A program made the translations under genes and the position numbers. The notes below the pieces were generated by a model, which had not been told where the DNA came from, made no database searches, and saw nothing but the letters and a program-made list of their open reading frames with translations. Positions 15,330 to 59,950 of a stretch of 64,000 nt of DNA are shown in pieces; the stretch's first letter is position 1; every line of letters begins with the position of its first letter. This stretch comes from Saccostrea cucullata. Taxonomy: Eukaryota. Location: contig NW_026925150.1 of assembly GCF_032062105.1 (NCBI RefSeq), positions 64,655 through 128,654 on the forward strand. The letters run 5' to 3'.

Positions 15330-17100
15330 TACGAAAGCCGGATAGGCTCATTTCTGAAAAGATAAAAAAATATTTAACTCGTTATAACGAGTTAATTATC
15401 TCGTTATAACGACTTAGTTATCTCGTTATAACGACTTAGTATCTCGTTATAACGAGTTAATTATGTCCTTATAAGGACTTAGTTTTATCTCGTTATTACG
15501 AATTACTTATGTCGTTATAACGAGTTAGTATCTCGTTATAACGAATTAATTATCTCGTTATAACGACTTAGTTATCTCGTTATAACGAGTTAATGATCTC
15601 GTTATAACGAGTTAATGATCTCGTTATAACGAGTTAGTTATCTCGTTATAACGAATTAATTATCTCGTTATAACGAGTTAATGATCTCGTTATAACCACT
15701 TAGTTATCTCGTTATAACGAGTTAGTTATCTCGTTATAACGAATTAGTTTTCTCGTTATAACGAGTTAATTATCTCGTTATAACGAAATAATAAGTTGCC
15801 CTTTTATTTCCAAATTAATAGCAATATAGGAATTAAAAATGGCTGTAGTTTTAATGCTATTGAAGTTTAATTGATAATTATCAGTCGTACTTAACTTTAA
15901 AATTGATAAAGAGATGCAAATATAATTTGCAATATGGTTTTAATAATACCTGTACTAATCCTGTTCGAACTACAAGTATCTTGCCGTCAATAATCACAAT
16001 TTGATAAAAATAGCTATCTTTTAATCGAACACATTTATACGTGAACGTCTCTAAGTACACACTATTAAAAATATATGGCCAAATGTACTTGCTTCAAAGT
16101 TTTGCAATTTAAGTATAACAACTTTCTCCGATAAAACACACTATTTTTTTTATATATGTTTAACTTTTGGATGACCTTATAGCTTCCATAATCAATGTCT
16201 AATTTCTTAATTAATGCATTATAATGTCAAGCTAAGGCAGGCGTTAGTTACACAACATATCTTATATACACTTACAGCGTAATATATATTATTTTTAGAG
16301 TCAGAAATGTTTTGAAGAAGGGGGGTATAGAGACATCAGCATTTAGGTCTTGGGCCCGCGTAAAATTCGGGGGCTACTGTCCACTCATAACACAACATCA
16401 CGAGGCAGTCATAAGGTTCCGTATACACGTACACGTATTTGTCTTTGGTGTTTTTGAATAAAACAATACAAATCAACTGCATCGTTTATAATTAAACGAA
16501 CTACAATCACAGACACAACCCCTCGAGAAAAAAAACAAAAACAAAACTAGTTTGCTGTTTTTCAATGAAATATTTATCATACACACAAACTTGATCGACT
16601 CGATTTTATATGCAATACTTCCTATTACTTACATATATCAACTTTAGAGTTTTTAACTCGTTATAACGAGAAAATTAACTCGTTATAACGAGAAAAATTA
16701 ACTCGTTATAACGAGAAAATTTCTCGTTATAACGAGTTAATTTTCTCGTTATAACGAGATAACTAAGTCATTATAACGAGATAACTAACTCGTTATAACG
16801 AGATAACTAACTCGTTATAACGAGATAACTAACTCGTTATAACGAGATAAATAACTCGTTATAACGAGATAATTAACTCGTTATAAGGAGATAACTAACT
16901 CGTTATAACGAGATATCTAAGTCGTTATAACGAGATAATTAACTCATTATAACGAGATACTAACTTGTTATAACGAGATAATTTACTCGTTTTAACGAGA
17001 CTAACTCATTCTAACGAGATAATTAACTCGTTATAACGAGTTAATTTTTTTTTATCTTCTCAGAAATGAGCCTATCCGGCTTTCGTAGATTTCTAATGAA
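15330..17100. mobile_element. Foldback-type element. The arms are inverted arrays of a ~22-bp minisatellite whose core is the 14-bp palindrome CTCGTTATAACGAG. A ~870-bp spacer separates the arms, and ~60-bp outer terminal inverted repeats flank them.
   Basis: Array 15360..15790 ('tctcgttataacgagttaattatctcgttataacgacttag...') and the inverted array 16660..17040 ('aactcgttataacgagataact...'). Outer inverted repeats 15320-15360 'gatttctacgaaagccggataggctcatttctgaaaagataaaaaa' against 17045-17100 (rc). Confidence 0.75.
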
Positions 17101-37189: not shown

Positions 37190-37655
37190 TAATAAATTTG
37201 TTTTATCTGTCTTAGTTGTTGAGGGAATTTCTGTTTTGTCTTTGTTAGCCATTGACATGATTGAGGGAGCTTCTATATTTTTTTTTACCCTTGTTAGATG
37301 TTGATAAGGACCTGTGTTTATTTTTAGATGTTGAGGGATTTCTCTCTATTTGCTTATAATTAGATGTTGAGGGATTTCTCTCTATTTGGTTATAATAAGA
37401 TGTTGAGGGATTTCTCTCTATTTGGTTATTTTTAGATGTTGAGGGATTTCTCTCTATTTAGATATTTTTTTGATGTTGAGGGATTTCTATCTATTTGGTT
37501 ATTTTTAGATGTTGAGGGAGCTTCTCTCTATTTAGATATTTTTTTGATGTTGAGGGATTTCTCTCTATTTGGTTATTTTTAGATGTTGAGGGATTTCTCT
37601 CTATTTAGATATTTTTTTGGTGTTGAGGGATTTCTATCTATTTGGTTATTTTTAG
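37190..37655 (+). repeat. Minisatellite (~36-37-bp unit, about 8-9 copies) derived from the intron 6 / exon 7 junction. Each unit carries 'tttttag|ATGTTGAGGGA'.
   Basis: 'ttatttttagatgttgagggatttctctctatttgg' is repeated. The final unit continues into exon 7 ('tttttagATGTTGAGGGAGCTTCTCTCTGTTTGGGGTGAC'). Confidence 0.85.
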
Positions 37656-37797
37656 ATGTTGAGGGAGCTTCTCTCTGTTTGGGGTGACAGCAGTGCCCTG
37701 AAGCACACCTCTGTGGAGCAGCATCTGTACATCACAAAGGCTCTATTTATAGGACTGGGATTCCTCAAAGAATCAGACAAGGCAGAAATCAGAGAGG
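37656..37797 (+). CDS. TELO2: TELO2 exon 7. Its acceptor (tttttag|ATG...) is the last unit of an intronic minisatellite derived from this junction.
   Basis: 'MLRELLSVWGDSSALKHTSVEQHLYITKALFIGLG...' matches human '[34 protein letters not shown]'. Donor GAGG|GTAAGT. Confidence 0.7.
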
Positions 37798-45089: not shown

Positions 45090-46130
45090 CAAAATGCTAC
45101 TCCTCCTACAATTTTAGTCTGATTTCAATATTACTTGGCACACAAGTAGACTACACTAAGATACATAGAATAGTGCATCGGTTTTTAATTTCGATGAACG
45201 GTGTTGCCATGGTTACTAAAAATAGAATTTTCTATGAAATTCCTTAAAAACGCTACTCCTTCTACAGTTTTGGTCTGATTTCAATATTACTTGGCACACA
45301 AGTAGACTACACTAAGATACATAGAATAGTGCATTGGTTTTTAATTTCGATGAACAGTGTTGCCATGGTTACTAAAAATAGAATTTTCTGTGAAATTCCT
45401 TTAAATCGCTACTCCTTCCACAGTGTTGATCTGATTTCAATATAACTTGGTACACAAGTAGACTACACTAAGATACATAGAATAGTGCATCGGTTTTTGA
45501 TTTCAGTAAACGGTGTTGCCATGGTTACTAAAAGTAGAATTTTCTGTGAAATTCCTTAAAAACGCTACTCCTTCTACAGTTTTGGTCTGATTTCAATATT
45601 ACTTGGCACACAAGTAGACTACACTAAGATACATAGAACAGTGCATCGGTTTTTAATTTCGATGAACAGTGTTGCCATGGTTACTAAAAATAGAATTTTC
45701 TGTGAAATTCCTCTAAAACGCTACTCCTTCTACAGTGTTGATCTGATTTCAATATAACTTGGTACACAAGTAGACTACACTAAGATACATAGAATAGTGC
45801 ATCGTTTTTTGATTTTAGTAAACGGTGTTGCCATGGTTACTAAAAATAGAATACTCTGTGAAATTCATTTAAAACGCTACTCCTTCTACAGTTTTGGTCT
45901 GATTTCATTATAACTTGGCACACAAGTAGACTACACTAAGATACATAGAATAGTGCATCAGTATTTGATTTCGATGAATGGTGTTGCCATGGTTACTAAA
46001 AATAGAATTTTCTGTGAAATTCCTTTAAAACGCTACTCCTTCTACAGTATCAGTTTGATTTCAAAATAAGTTGGCACACAAGTAGACTACACAAAGAAAC
46101 ATAAAATAGTGCAATGGTTTTTGATAAATA
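45090..46130. repeat. Satellite / tandem array, ~155-bp unit, about 6.5 copies, in the TELO2-MVP intergenic region
   Basis: The unit 'gctactccttctacagttttggtctgatttcaatattacttggcacacaagtagactacactaagatacatagaatagtgcatcggtttttaatttcgatgaacggtgttgccatggttactaaaaatagaattttctgtgaaattcc' is repeated. Confidence 0.9.
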
Positions 46131-53445: not shown

Positions 53446-53803
53446 CTACAAAATAAAATGAAAAATGGAGATTTATTACAAGATTCTATTAGAGCCACAG
53501 CTGCATCTGTTTTTTTTTTTAGTTCTTTTGTATTCTTTGACAAAGAAAGTTGAAAGAAATGTTAGAGAAATTCATTATTGCTGGGGGGGGGGGGGGGGTA
53601 TGCTTTATGCTTGTACATGATCAAAATAAACACACATACATCAATCTTTTTAACTGAAATTAGAGACAGTTGAATGTTACAAGTTCTAGAAAAAATTTTT
53701 AAAAATGCTTTTTAAGTAATGTTTTAAGTTATATAGTCATCAGAGCAAAATGACCACTGTCTATATTCAGTACTAGATGACAGTAGCATATATTGTTTTT
53801 TAC

Positions 53804-53891
53804 CTTGTTTTGACGACCTTGACCTCTATCGGGGGTATGTACTCCAGGGGTCCTCTCAACATCCATACATCTCCTGGACTCCTCTTCTTAC
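53804..53891 (-). CDS. MVP: MVP exon 11
   Basis: '[29 protein letters not shown]' matches human '[27 protein letters not shown]'. Confidence 0.85.
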
Positions 53892-54393
53892 CTACAGTGT
53901 ATAAAACATAGAATAGGTTAATTTTGAGATTTGACCCTTCTTTTGGTAATTTGCAGCATTACATTGGACTATACAAAATCTGTCTCGACTCCACATTTCT
54001 ATGGTATTTGAGACAATGATGTTAAAGATACAAGTTCAACTAAACCTTGTTGAACTTAAAGGCAACTTCTGAAATACAGCATATTGTAAAATCACATACT
54101 TTTATGGGGTCAAATTTTCGTGGTTTCAGGAAAATCTATTAGTTCTTGGGGATTTAATTTCGTGGACCATGAATTAATGAGCATTTATGTAGGTAACATT
54201 TTACATTTCATTGTGGTCATGAATTCGTGGGTCTCGTCATACCTTGAAAAAAAAAACAAAAATTGAACCCTCATGAAAATGTGATTTCACAGTATATGCA
54301 CATGCAGTATTGTTTGCTCCACTGGAAAATAACTCCCCAAACCAGTTTATTTATTTTGTATTTGATGAGATGATTATACACTAGCTGTCTCAC

Positions 54394-54495
54394 CTTTGAA
54401 CATGGTGTCTCTGTATTCTTCCTCTGCTTGTAAAACAATGGCGTCGTCTTCTCCCAGAATGTGGACATTTTGTACTCCTTTCTCTAAGCTCTCCC
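54394..54495 (-). CDS. MVP: MVP exon 10
   Basis: 'GESLEKGVQNVHILGEDDAIVLQAEEEYRDTMFK' matches human '[37 protein letters not shown]'. Confidence 0.85.
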
Positions 54496-55115
54496 CTACA
54501 CAAAACAAAAGTTTTCTCTCTAGTCTTTGTTACTTGGAAACATTATACATCAATTTTATTTCCAAAGATAAAAAATAAATATAAAAAATATCAATATTAT
54601 TTTATATATATATATAGAAACATGTTACATGCTGGAATATAAAAAAACTATTTTTAAATGTAATATACATTAATTTTATTTTGAAAATTTGTCTTAAGGT
54701 AAAAAAAAAAAACTGCATGCCCAATTTTTTTTTAAATTTTGCATAACTTAAAATTAATTATGATAGAGAAAAGCTATAGGACTCAATTATTCATCTCCCT
54801 TTCTTGTACAGGGACGTTTATAACTCTTAAAAAAAAATCAATTTTATATGTAGAAATGTTGTTTTGTATGCTTTTTTTTGTAATTGTGTGCTGATGAATA
54901 TAAAAATCGATCATTTCAATTTCAAATTGGTTTAAGGGAACTCAACCTATTGTGTACTTGCACTTTAAATGCAAGAACTTCATTTTAATTATTTTGAAAT
55001 TTTGTCTAAGGAAAAAATTCAGAAACCTGCATGCCCAATTTTTTTTTTTTAAATTTTGCATAACTTAAAATTAATTATGATAGAGAAAAGCTATAGGACT
55101 CAATTATTCATCTCC

Positions 55116-55181
55116 CTTTCTTACCTGGGTGGAGGAAGAAGCTACAGGGCCCCACCCTCAGTTCCCGTTTATAACTCTTAC
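55116..55181 (-). repeat. Tandem duplicate of the last ~45 nt of MVP exon 9 plus its GTAAGA donor (an intronic pseudo-exon end). A further degenerate copy lies at ~54790-54830, inside a ~320-bp local tandem duplication.
   Basis: On the minus strand '...CGGGAACTGAGGGTGGGGCCCTGTAGCTTCTTCCTCCACCCAGgtaaga' occurs twice, at 55182-55236 and 55120-55176. The 54655-54812 segment matches 54975-55130 apart from an internal deletion. Confidence 0.85.
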
Positions 55182-55323
55182 CTGGGTGGAGGAAGAAGCT
55201 ACAGGGCCCCACCCTCAGTTCCCGTTTTCCCAACTGTGGCTTCCCTTTCTTGTCTACCACATCTTTAATGACACAGTACTGTCCCTTCCACAAAACCTTG
55301 ATGGTCTCCGCTGATGTCACTTC
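55182..55323 (-). CDS. MVP: MVP exon 9. Its 3' end plus donor are tandemly duplicated immediately downstream in the intron (55116..55181).
   Basis: 'EVTSAETIKVLWKGQYCVIKDVVDKKGKPQLGKRELRVGPCSFFLHP' matches human '[45 protein letters not shown]'. Confidence 0.85.
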
Positions 55324-55665
55324 CTGTTTGAAGAAAAAAAAATTATACACATGGTGCCTGGATGAATTTAGAACTTCCTGCTGAACAAAATTTAAAATAT
55401 ATTCTCTCACAGGTTTATTTTTGCCTTAGGTTTATAATTTTCAATCTACAACCCTTGCTAGTTGAATATCCTCTCCTTTCAAAGAATTTACATTGGCAAA
55501 ATTTTTCCTGTATACAGCATATAAATTAATGTACAATATGTAGCTTTACGACTTATTTTTTTTTCACAGGATAATAATCTTTCTTTGTACCAGCATCTGC
55601 GTGCAGCACTGATTTAATGCTCACAAACTTCCTTAATTAAAAAACCCCATCAAGATTCTGCTTAC

Positions 55666-55732
55666 CACACCAATTTCTGGATAATAGTGATCAGTCTCAG
55701 CTCCCGTCAACAGCCACTGCTCTCCAGCCATT
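55666..55732 (-). CDS. MVP: MVP exon 8
   Basis: 'MAGEQWLLTGAETDHYYPEIGV' matches human '[24 protein letters not shown]'. Confidence 0.85.
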
Positions 55733-56237
55733 CTAATAAATTTATAATAAGTCTAGTTAGTAACTCAATTAATTAATTCAATCTTTACTGCTGTCCAGCT
55801 TTAAATTTGTTCAAACAAAAGAAAAACCAGCACCTTTCGAAACTTTCTTTTACAGCGCATCATGTTTATTCATCATTTTTTTATGACAAACTTTACTTCT
55901 GAATAAATTCTGCACTCAATATAAACAGAGTCCTCAACAGAAAAAATTACTAGTGATGAATGGATGTTAAAGGGACAAATCCCAAATAAATGTTATATCA
56001 AATAAATGTTGTAAGTTCTACTATTGGAAAAAGGTATAAATATAATGAACAGATCTAGTTCATCTAAAAGAATCCATAAACAATATAAACAATTATATGA
56101 GGAGGGCGAAAACAAACATTTCTGGAAATTCCAGAGGTGGGATCAGGTGCCTTGGAGGAGTCAGCTTCCCCCTTTTCACCGGACCCACTTGCCTTCTATA
56201 AAAATTTCCTTAAATCGTGACTGTCACTATCAAAGTA

Positions 56238-58700: not shown

Positions 58701-58928
58701 TGCCTCTGGCTTGGGTCGATAGGTCAAAGGTCCCTCCAGCTGCCATTTATCTCCAGCCTGGTGTTTTCCGTGGGCGTCTTCAAAGTCAATGTTAGCGACC
58801 AATCGGATTGCATGATTGGCCTGAATGACAGGCAGAGGTTTGATAGCAATGCTGTAGTCAGGTCTGTTCCTCAGGAAGTCAGGAGCATGGAGAAGAGTTT
58901 CCCCGGGGTACAAGGGGAAAGGAGAATC
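58701..58928 (-). CDS. MVP: MVP exon 4
   Basis: 'DSPFPLYPGETLLHAPDFL...NIDFEDAHGKHQAGDKWQLEGPLTYRPKPEA' matches human 'DPFPLYPGEVLEKDITPLQ...[32 protein letters not shown]'. Confidence 0.9.
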
Positions 58929-59394
58929 CTATAAATAGAAACAATAGTCCTAAATATAGAAAAAAATTCAAGATCAACTTCTGTTTTCATTTTCTAACTT
59001 CCGAGAGTGAAATTAAAGTTTAAATTAAATGTTGCATAAATATCAGTGTTTTAATTTGATGCCTGGGAATTTCATTTTTTCTAGTATAAATCTATGAACC
59101 AAGAAGATGGGAAATTTCAGAAGGGTTAATTTAAATTGCCGTTACACCATTTACAAGCAGAGTGGTTTGTATTCTATCCTGGAAACTTATTCAAGTCTGC
59201 ACATTTTGCCAGCAAACATAGCTAAAGAGCTAATATCTCTGACCTTTATACATGACTGCATAAACATGATAAAGTCATGCTTAACTGTGTAAGGTTAAAA
59301 ATAAAACTAGAACTGTCCAAACAGGACAAAATACCCTCCGCTGGGTTTTTCTGAGGTACGTTTTTCCATAAAGATTATATTTAAGATATGTATC

Positions 59395-59950
59395 AAACAC
59401 AAATTATGAAATTTTTTTAACAGTGACCTTGAACTTCTCCAAATGACCTTGGGTCAAGGTCATGACACACTCTTGGGTCATGGGCAATCTTTGTGTGAAA
59501 AGAGAACCTACCAAGTTTATCCATAAGAAAAATATGGACCGGACACAAATTATGAATTTTTTCTTCAAGTGACCTTGAACTTCCCCAAATGACCTGGGGT
59601 CAATGTCAAGACACACCCTTGGGTCATGGGCAATCTTTGTGTGAAATGAGAACCTACCAAGTTTATCCATAAGAATGATATGGACCGGACACGAATTATG
59701 AAATTTTTCTTCCAGTGACCTTGAACTTCCCCAAATGACCTTAGGTCTAGGTCATGACACACCCTTGGGTCATGGGCAATCTTTGTGTGAAATGAGAACC
59801 TACCAAGTTTATCCATAAGAAAGATATGGACCGGACAGGAATTATGAATTTTTTCTTCCAGTGACCTTGAACTTCCCCAAATGACCTTGGGTCAAGGTCA
59901 TGACACACCCTTGGGTCATGGGCAATCTTAGTGTGGAGTGCATAACGTCC
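59395..59950. repeat. Intronic satellite, ~160-bp unit, about 3.5 copies (MVP intron 3)
   Basis: 'caaattatgaaatttttt..cagtgaccttgaacttccccaaatgaccttgggtcaaggtcatgacacacccttgggtcatgggcaatctttgtgtgaaatgagaacctaccaagtttatccataagaa.gatatggaccggacac' is repeated. Confidence 0.9.

What the first reader, a model, noticed from the sequence alone, without database searches (positions are those of the whole stretch)
54640..55240. Tandem duplication of the MVP exon 9 3' end together with its splice donor
The last ~45 nt of exon 9 plus 'GTAAGA' occur twice in tandem (55182..55236 and 55120..55176 on the minus strand), followed by a third rearranged copy within a 320-bp local duplication (54655..54812 matches 54975..55130). 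The result is two equivalent donors 62 nt apart. Using the downstream one would insert a repeat of 'KRELRVGPCSFFLHPG' with a frame change. The six-frame ORF 55108..55410 reads straight through both copies. Together with the TELO2 exon 7 array, this is the second amplified splice junction in the window.
Basis: seen in the sequence. Interest (0 to 1): 0.65.

Follow-up and report, generated by a model that had tools for sequence, protein, structure and literature searches.

The report
Duplicated splice donor in vault gene
A 57-base stretch covering the end of one exon of the major vault protein gene and its splice signal is repeated in tandem, giving two identical splice donors; this is a young example of a kind of repeat already known from human genes such as F7, and it is probably harmless.

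Summary
The last 46 nt of the MVP exon at 55323..55182 (minus strand) plus GTAAGA occur twice, 100% identical (55227-55176 and 55170-55119). The copies are separated by a 5-nt filler (GTTAT), so the period is 57 nt, not 62. The two donors (CAG|GTAAGA) are therefore 57 nt apart. Using the downstream donor would add 19 amino acids in frame with no stop codon, so there is no frame change. A third, degraded copy 311-351 nt further into the intron contains the same copy-to-copy junction 15-mer. This shows a multi-step history and argues against a simple assembly glitch. Eight contigs from several related species carry one copy, and 16 diverse MVP homologues have no insertion at this site, so the event is lineage-specific and recent. 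This type of repeat is documented in human F7, IFI6, CBS, LMNB2 and PDGF, where the most upstream donor is normally used. I predict mainly canonical MVP with at most a minor +19-aa isoform. Junction-spanning arrays recur here: one at a TELO2 acceptor in the window and one at another MVP donor in a relative. This genome is 8% tandem repeat, so that is about what chance plus selection would give. It is an ordinary kind of feature of low to moderate interest.

The parts
55182..55323 (-). It encodes EVTSAETIKVLWKGQYCVIKDVVDKKGKPQLGKRELRVGPCSFFLHPG.
   Evidence: tblastn with MVP proteins. Acceptor and donor were located. The product aligns without gaps to solved MVP 9z4w_A residues 243-398.
55176..55227 (-). 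Copy A of the 52-nt unit: the last 46 nt of the exon plus GTAAGA. It contains the authentic (upstream) donor, CAG|GTAAGA, with last exon base 55182 and GT at 55181-55180.
55171..55175 (-). 5-nt filler GTTAT between the two copies. It has no counterpart after copy B.
   Evidence: Sequence. TRF consensus unit of 57 nt.
55119..55170 (-). Copy B, 100% identical to copy A. It lies in the intron if donor 1 is used. It contains the second donor, with last 'exon' base 55125 and GT at 55124-55123.
54964..55122 (-). Intron segment X directly after copy B. It is the source or partner of the second local duplication.
   Evidence: Self-BLAST, 160 nt aligned at 87.5% to 54653-54805, including an 81-nt block at 100%.
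54830..54963 (-). Unique intron spacer between X and the third copy.
   Evidence: No second match in the window or in the relatives.
54653..54829 (-). Third, degraded copy. It consists of the exact A|B junction 15-mer TAAGAGTTATAAACG (54829-54815), a 9-nt relic TCCCTGTAC of the exon-derived part (54814-54806, no GGTAAG donor left), and then the copy of intron segment X (54805-54653).
54389..54495 (-). Next MVP exon (GESLEKGVQNVHILGEDDAIVLQAEEEYRD...). Its acceptor tgtgtag|GG is at 54496/54495. The 3' end is approximate.
55108..55410 (-). Mechanical six-frame ORF that reads from the upstream intron through the exon and both copies to a TGA in the intron. It is not a gene in itself.

Best explanation
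This is a young, lineage-specific tandem duplication that spans the exon-intron junction of an MVP exon. In effect it is a two-copy, nascent 'junction-spanning minisatellite'. A 52-nt segment (46 nt of exon plus the first 6 nt of the intron) was duplicated head to tail with a 5-nt filler. A further local duplication then copied the new junction and the start of the intron 311-351 nt downstream, with most of the exon-derived part lost. The upstream copy remains contiguous with the intact exon and keeps its donor, so the gene can still make normal MVP by splicing at the upstream donor. The second copy then sits in intron 9 as a sequence-identical pseudo-donor. I infer, but have not shown, that the upstream donor is used predominantly, as in the human precedents. 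I also infer that any use of the downstream donor gives a minor mRNA with 57 extra bases, which would be translated into MVP with a 19-aa in-frame repeat. Such junction-spanning repeats are what is left after selection in a genome that makes tandem duplications often. Duplications inside an exon change the protein, whereas those that straddle a junction leave one intact exon plus splice site.
For: Anatomy shown directly. Lineage-specific and recent: the two copies are 100% identical. Eight contigs from five distinct related sequences (84-90% aa, about 80% nt identity in this exon) all have a single copy followed directly by the intron. The upstream donor gives the canonical protein: there is a gap-free alignment to solved MVP across the junction, and none of 16 diverse homologues has extra residues at the site. 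Multi-step history: the A|B junction 15-mer recurs in a diverged third copy. That block is purely local, not a dispersed element. Repeat-rich genome: tandem arrays of period >=10 cover 8.2% of the window and 5.3% of the MVP span. With about 40 MVP junctions, about 2 would fall in arrays by chance. Tolerance of reiterated donors in this lineage: relative L005 has an older array (88% matches, at least 4.3 copies, period 59-63, not a multiple of 3) of another MVP exon end plus donor. Precedent for upstream-donor use: human F7 IVS7, LMNB2 and PDGF use only the authentic donor, and IFI6 and CBS use it plus the next one or two (PMC1557585). Tandem repeats at exon-intron boundaries in human genes produce alternative splicing (PMC2812944). 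Weak support: the donor 1 core is predicted to be more accessible than donor 2 (mean unpaired probability 0.53 vs 0.22).
Against: There are no transcript data, so donor choice is inferred only. [quoted passage not shown] In the F7 system, pseudo-sites that perfectly matched the consensus did shift splicing towards themselves. The site here, CAG|GTAAGA, is near-consensus. No independent assembly or reads of the same species were available, so an assembly artefact is not excluded. The predicted RNA fold is no more stable than shuffled sequence (z = +1.4), so the accessibility difference carries little weight. The order of events is uncertain. A and B are 100% identical while the third copy is degraded, which fits either very recent events with an error-prone copying step or later homogenisation.
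Confidence: 0.7

Rival explanations
1. The downstream (intron-proximal) donor is used mainly or substantially. In that case this animal makes an MVP with a 19-aa in-frame tandem repeat (KSYKRELRVGPCSFFLHPG) inside a vault repeat domain, either as the main product or as a regular alternative isoform.
For: The insertion is exactly 57 nt, in frame, with no stop, so the mRNA would escape NMD. The two donors are identical over 46 + 6 nt. [quoted passage not shown] IFI6 and CBS do use the next one or two reiterated donors.
Against: The natural junction-spanning repeats studied in cells (F7, LMNB2, PDGF) use only the upstream donor. No relative and none of 16 diverse homologues has an insertion here. 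Nearly invariant residues (F, L, P, E of SFFLxPGE) flank the site. Structure prediction could not assess tolerance, because the canonical control was as poor as the insertion isoform.
Confidence: 0.2
2. The 57-nt duplication is an assembly or polishing artefact, or is present in only one haplotype. The true or common sequence has a single exon end and donor.
For: The copies are 100% identical. All relatives are single copy. No independent data for this species were found.
Against: The copy-to-copy junction (TAAGAGTTATAAACG) also occurs 351 nt downstream, inside a diverged, partly deleted third copy. A one-off local assembly error would not produce that. The window has no N runs. The genome is rich in genuine diverged tandem arrays, and a relative assembled from short reads shows the same type of array at another MVP junction.
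Confidence: 0.1
3. Splice junctions are mutational hot spots for tandem amplification in this lineage, through a junction-specific mechanism, rather than being hit at random and filtered by selection.
For: Three junction-spanning arrays were found in very little sequence. They are the MVP donor here, the TELO2 acceptor at 37318-37682, and another MVP donor in relative L005.
Against: Tandem arrays cover 8.2% of the window and 5.3% of the MVP span. Random placement already predicts about 2 MVP junctions inside arrays, and one is observed. The 52-nt unit has no unusual hairpin potential as ssDNA (z about +0.5). Most arrays in the window are intronic or intergenic satellites.
Confidence: 0.08

Closest known systems
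Human F7 intron 7 37-bp VNTR (Borensztajn et al. 2006, PLoS Genet 2:e138; PMC1557585)
   Same: The first repeat monomer spans the exon-intron boundary, so the authentic donor is followed by sequence-identical pseudo-donors in the intron. The gene still makes its normal product from the most upstream donor.
   Different: F7 has 5-9 copies of a unit containing only 4 exon bases, it is a population polymorphism, and its donor is weak (UGG|gugggu). Here there are only 2 perfect copies (plus a degraded third), 46 exon bases per unit and a near-consensus donor. The period is a multiple of 3, so the alternative product would be in frame. Donor usage and polymorphism are untested here.
Human IFI6 (6-16) intron 2 and CBS intron 13 minisatellites (as summarised in PMC1557585)
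   Same: They have reiterated donors created by a junction-spanning repeat. The authentic donor plus the next one or two copies are used, giving alternative isoforms. That is the behaviour expected if donor 2 is partly used here.
   Different: They have many copies (15-26) of short units and are vertebrate genes with transcript evidence. None of that is available here.
Human LMNB2 (100-bp unit) and PDGF intron 4 (81-bp unit) junction minisatellites
   Same: They have long units of a size comparable to the 57-nt unit here, and only the authentic donor is used.
   Different: They have 10-18 copies, against two here.
Internal tandem repeats at exon-intron boundaries in human segmental-duplication genes (De Grassi & Ciccarelli 2009, Genome Biol 10:R137; PMC2812944)
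   Same: These are recent tandem repeats at exon-intron boundaries that alter splicing patterns. Most have transcript support for both forms.
   Different: They were found between recent paralogues. Here the gene appears to be single copy in the window, and the comparison is with other species.
Intron gain by tandem duplication of an AGGT-containing exon segment (e.g. PMC4974935, seen)
   Same: A short tandem duplication creates an extra pair of splice signals.
   Different: That model creates a new intron between the GT of copy 1 and the AG of copy 2. Here the intron already exists at the same position in all relatives, and only the donor is duplicated.

Membership tests
Junction-spanning minisatellite with reiterated 5' splice sites (F7 IVS7 type) | The first repeat unit spans the exon-intron boundary. 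| tested here: met
   The unit is 46 nt of exon plus GTAAGA (plus a 5-nt filler). Exon limits come, and the repeat.
Junction-spanning minisatellite with reiterated 5' splice sites (F7 IVS7 type) | [quoted passage not shown] | tested here: met
   CAG|GTAAGA occurs at 55184-55176 and 55127-55119, with identical context over 46 exon-side and 6 intron-side bases.
Junction-spanning minisatellite with reiterated 5' splice sites (F7 IVS7 type) | A multi-copy head-to-tail array (minisatellite). | tested here: inconclusive
   There are only 1.9 perfect copies plus a degraded, non-adjacent third copy. This is a nascent array at best.
Junction-spanning minisatellite with reiterated 5' splice sites (F7 IVS7 type) | Copy number is polymorphic in the population (VNTR). 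| not testable with these tools
   No reads or second assembly of the species were found.
Junction-spanning minisatellite with reiterated 5' splice sites (F7 IVS7 type) | Downstream copies are silent pseudo-sites, and the most upstream donor is used. | not testable with these tools
   This needs RNA-seq or RT-PCR. There is only indirect support: the canonical protein requires donor 1.
Major vault protein (MVP) | Sequence homology to MVP repeat and shoulder domains along the gene. | tested here: met
   tblastn hits to about 20 coding blocks. Homologues carry Pfam Vault/MVP domains. E = 4e-48 to solved MVP 9z4w_A.
Alternative tandem 5' splice sites (functional alternative donors) | Both donors are used in mature mRNA. 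| not testable with these tools
   There are no transcript data. The reading frame is compatible, at +57 nt with no stop.
Intron gain by tandem duplication | A new intron is absent from relatives and bounded by the GT of copy 1 and the AG of copy 2. | tested here: not met
   The intron is present at the same position (after ...CAYCCAG|GT) in all relatives. The acceptor used is the old one at 54496/54495.
Dispersed repeat / mobile element insertion | Further copies exist elsewhere. | tested here: not met
   The intron blocks X, Y and Z have no other match in the 64-kb window or in the relatives' contigs.

The most novel reading that the evidence does not exclude
The downstream donor is in regular use, so this animal expresses a vault protein with a newly duplicated 19-residue segment. 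More generally, reiterated splice junctions would be so common in this repeat-rich (probably molluscan) lineage (two in this 64-kb window and one in a 3-kb contig of a relative) that it would offer a natural, genome-wide experiment on how the spliceosome chooses among identical 5' or 3' splice sites, and on how exon ends grow by duplication.
Probability: 0.15. Interest if true: 0.5.

Novelty: new member of a known kind. Interest (0 to 1): 0.25.

Why it matters
For annotation, gene predictors and variant-effect tools can pick the wrong donor here or call a frameshift. The correct statement is that the upstream donor gives canonical MVP and the downstream donor gives an in-frame +19-aa product. 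For biology, it is a very young example, caught at two perfect copies, of how minisatellites that reiterate a splice site arise. Together with the TELO2 acceptor array and the older array in a relative's MVP, it shows that such structures are tolerated repeatedly in this lineage. It raises no new principle. The class and its splicing behaviour have been described in human genes.

Tried and rejected
(1) Independent copy of the same species. Two protein searches found only relatives (at most 90% aa identity in this exon). Two degenerate DNA scans of the metagenome collection found nothing. Even the JGI contig L008 is not in that collection, so these zeros say little. A search for the ENA project accession in the literature gave nothing, so the organism stays unidentified. 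The closest named protein is from the snail Bulinus truncatus, at 61% identity.

(2) Structural tolerance of the 19-aa insertion. AlphaFold2 models of the insertion isoform (mean pLDDT 69; the region around the repeat 45-59) and of the canonical control (mean pLDDT 65; residues 63-78 below 50) were equally poor in this domain with a 17-sequence alignment. No conclusion was drawn, and no fold search was run.

(3) RNA structure distinguishing the donors. The fold is no more stable than shuffles (z = +1.4). Only a weak accessibility difference was seen.

(4) Hairpin-driven slippage as the mutational cause. The ssDNA folds of the unit are ordinary (z about +0.5), so this was rejected as unsupported.

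(5) Mobile element origin of the third copy. It has no other copies, so this was rejected.

(6) Junction-specific amplification mechanism. This was not needed, given 8.2% tandem-repeat coverage.

(7) Deciding the ancestral intron start from relatives. Their introns diverge beyond alignment after about 6-8 nt, so this was uninformative.

Full report
**What is in the sequence**

The window carries a major vault protein (MVP) gene on the minus strand, from about 60.6 kb to 48 kb.
- tblastn with MVP proteins finds about 20 coding blocks.
- Homologues found with the assembled peptide carry the Pfam Vault/MVP domains.
- A 156-aa stretch around the finding matches solved vault MVP (9z4w_A residues 243-398) with E = 4e-48.
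- The window is 32.8% G+C with no N runs.
- The closest named protein is from the snail Bulinus truncatus, at 61% identity. The source is therefore probably a mollusc or other lophotrochozoan, but the species was not identified.

The exon in question runs from 55323 to 55182 (142 nt, ending in phase 1). It encodes EVTSAETIKVLWKGQYCVIKDVVDKKGKPQLGKRELRVGPCSFFLHPG.

**The repeat**

TRF reports one array at 55119..55227 with period 57, 1.9 copies, 100% matches and score 218. The repeat finder and a self-BLAST give two 52-nt copies, 55227-55176 (A) and 55170-55119 (B), 100% identical and separated by GTTAT. Each copy is the last 46 nt of the exon plus GTAAGA. The context around the two GT dinucleotides is identical for 46 bases on the exon side and 6 on the intron side.

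The two donors (CAG|GTAAGA) have their last exon bases at 55182 and 55125, which is 57 nt apart and not 62. Because 57 is a multiple of three and the extra stretch has no stop, splicing from the downstream donor to the normal acceptor (tgtgtag|GG at 54496/54495) would insert KSYKRELRVGPCSFFLHPG, 19 residues, in frame. Such an mRNA would have no premature stop. The ORF 55108..55410 that reads through both copies is confirmed.

**The third copy**

A second local duplication pairs 54964-55122 with 54653-54805 (160 nt aligned, 87.5%, including an 81-nt block at 100%). Just upstream of it, 54829-54815 is an exact copy of TAAGAGTTATAAACG. That 15-mer bridges copy A, the filler and copy B (55180-55166). 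Between the 15-mer and the intron block, only TCCCTGTAC remains of the exon-derived part.

The third copy therefore descends from a sequence that already contained the A|B junction. It has lost about 36 nt of the exon-derived part, including the donor. The blocks involved have no other copies in the window or in the relatives' contigs, so this is local duplication and not a mobile element.

The exact order and number of events is not resolved. There are two possibilities:
- a 52+5-nt duplication followed by an error-prone copy of about 200 nt placed about 350 nt downstream;
- three copies of a ~351-nt unit, with a large deletion in the first and small deletions in the last.

I could not use relatives to decide, because their introns are unalignable beyond the first 6-8 bases.

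**Is it real, and how old is it?**

The species itself is not in the searchable collections. Two metagenome DNA scans returned nothing. However, prokaryote-style gene calls on short genomic contigs of related animals read through this exon.
- Proteins P0110-P0114 are 84-90% identical in the exon, and all show a single KRELRVGPCSFFLHPG followed by intron read-through.
- Their eight contigs come from Logan, ENA and JGI samples (L002-L009). They are about 80% identical to the window at the DNA level in this exon.
- Both window copies A and B map to the same single place in each contig.

The duplication therefore arose in the window's own lineage, and the perfect identity of A and B says it is recent. 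An assembly artefact is not excluded. However, recurrence of the A|B junction inside a diverged third copy is hard to get from a one-off assembly error. The genome also clearly contains many genuine, diverged tandem arrays.

**Which donor gives the normal protein?**

With the upstream donor, the product aligns to solved MVP without any gap across the exon junction (sfflhpgeslekg against sfflqpgesleqg). In an alignment with 16 diverse MVP homologues, the 19-aa block of the hypothetical isoform faces a gap in every well-aligned sequence. Nearly invariant residues flank the site. The upstream donor is therefore the authentic one.

**Which donor is used?**

This cannot be tested here, and the literature points both ways.

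In favour of the upstream donor, Borensztajn et al. (PMC1557585) describe this class: minisatellites whose first monomer spans an exon-intron boundary, so that the donor is reiterated in the intron.
- In human F7 (37-bp unit, 5-9 copies), LMNB2 (100-bp unit) and PDGF (81-bp unit), only the most upstream donor is used.
- In IFI6 and CBS, the next one or two donors are used as well.

De Grassi and Ciccarelli (PMC2812944) found 27 intron modifications caused by tandem repeats at exon-intron boundaries in human genes, most with transcripts of both forms.

In favour of the downstream donor, Hodson et al. [quoted passage not shown]

Features of the window:
- The donor is near-consensus. By my own reading of U1 complementarity it has eight contiguous pairs, positions -3 to +5. 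This was not computed by a tool.
- Three G-runs lie within 35 nt downstream of donor 1, against one downstream of donor 2.
- The donor 1 core is predicted to be less base-paired (mean unpaired probability 0.53 against 0.22). The overall fold is no better than shuffled sequence, so this is weak.

I commit to predominant use of the upstream donor, with a possible minor in-frame isoform, at roughly 60-70% confidence for that step.

**Structural consequence of the insertion**

I tried AlphaFold2 on repeat domains around the site, with the insertion isoform and with the canonical isoform as a control, using the same 16 homologues.
- The insertion isoform had mean pLDDT 69, with blocks of 45-59 around the repeat.
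- The canonical control had mean pLDDT 65, with residues 63-78 below 50.

Both models were poor in this domain, so the comparison is uninformative and I draw nothing from it. From my memory of the rat vault structure, the site lies in the sixth repeat domain. This was not tested.

**The wider pattern**

The exon that begins at the last unit aligns to TEL2 homologue residues 330-371. However, it is an acceptor-side array: ttatttttag|ATGTTGAGGG... is repeated upstream of the intact exon start.

Unexpectedly, a relative's contig (L005) carries a third case. The last 40 nt of another MVP exon plus 19 nt of intron (…AAGACCAG|GTAAAACTAGGTCAACCTC) are repeated at least 4.3 times, with period 59-63 and 88% matches, up to the contig end. 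The window has one copy there (53893..53802). An independent assembly of the same sequence (L006) breaks right at the array. That array is older and out of frame, which implies that reiterated donors are tolerated in this lineage.

In all three cases, the intact copy is the one adjoining the exon body, and the extra copies lie in the intron.

Does this need a special mechanism? Tandem arrays of period 10 or more cover 8.2% of the window and 5.3% of the MVP span. With about 40 MVP junctions, random placement predicts about two junctions inside arrays, and one is seen. The unit has no unusual hairpin potential. The simplest account is frequent tandem duplication plus selection that removes duplications within exons and spares those that straddle a junction.

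**Verdict**

The feature is a young, two-copy member of a known class, junction-spanning tandem repeats with reiterated splice donors. It is useful to flag for annotation, and mildly interesting as an early stage of such arrays and for its recurrence in this lineage. It is not a new kind of system. Interest is 0.25.

Noticed in passing
L005:2697-2964 (ENA ERZ927611; homologous to window 53893..53802, minus strand): A relative's MVP gene has a tandem array of a different exon's last 40 nt plus its donor and 19 nt of intron. The array has at least 4.3 copies, period 59-63 and 88% matches, and runs to the contig end. The window has one copy. The independent assembly L006 ends exactly where the array starts.
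   Followed up: partly
window 37318-37682 (+): There are about 10 tandem units (36-37 nt) of a 3' splice site plus the first 26 nt of a TELO2 exon (ttatttttag|ATGTTGAGGGATTTCTCTCTATTTGG), upstream of the intact exon. That exon aligns to TEL2 homologue residues 330-371. More degenerate copies lie at about 37200-37317. Several units keep a usable-looking acceptor, so acceptor choice there is an open question.
   Followed up: partly
window 55664-55736 (-): A 73-nt block conserved at about 80% in all relatives' contigs, 340-400 nt upstream of the exon under study. It translates to RMAGEQWLLTGAETDHYYPEI and matches the MVP repeat motif, so it is a small MVP exon that the first tblastn pass missed.
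   Followed up: yes
window 15374-15792 and 16653-17046: Two arrays of a 22-nt unit, about 19 and 18 copies. The consensus units (TTATCTCGTTATAACGAATTAA and TTAACTCGTTATAACGAGATAA) are reverse complements of each other, about 860 nt apart. This looks like a large inverted-repeat (foldback-like) structure.
   Followed up: no
window 35982-36652, 45091-46125, 59383-59935: Satellite-like arrays with long units: 166 nt x 4, 156 nt x 6.6, and 146 nt x 3.8. The last one lies inside an MVP intron. Together with other arrays, tandem repeats of period >=10 cover 8.2% of the window.
   Followed up: no
L008:1-249 (JGI 3300045951): A relative has a 28-nt x 8.9 tandem array (92% matches) in the intron upstream of the homologous exon, about 260 nt before its acceptor. 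It does not overlap the exon.
   Followed up: no
window 58701-58949 (-): One MVP coding block reads without a stop through a stretch that is about 13 residues longer than human MVP (…FPLYPGETLLHAPDFLRNRPDYSIAIKPLPV…). This is either a lineage-specific insertion or an unrecognised short intron.
   Followed up: no
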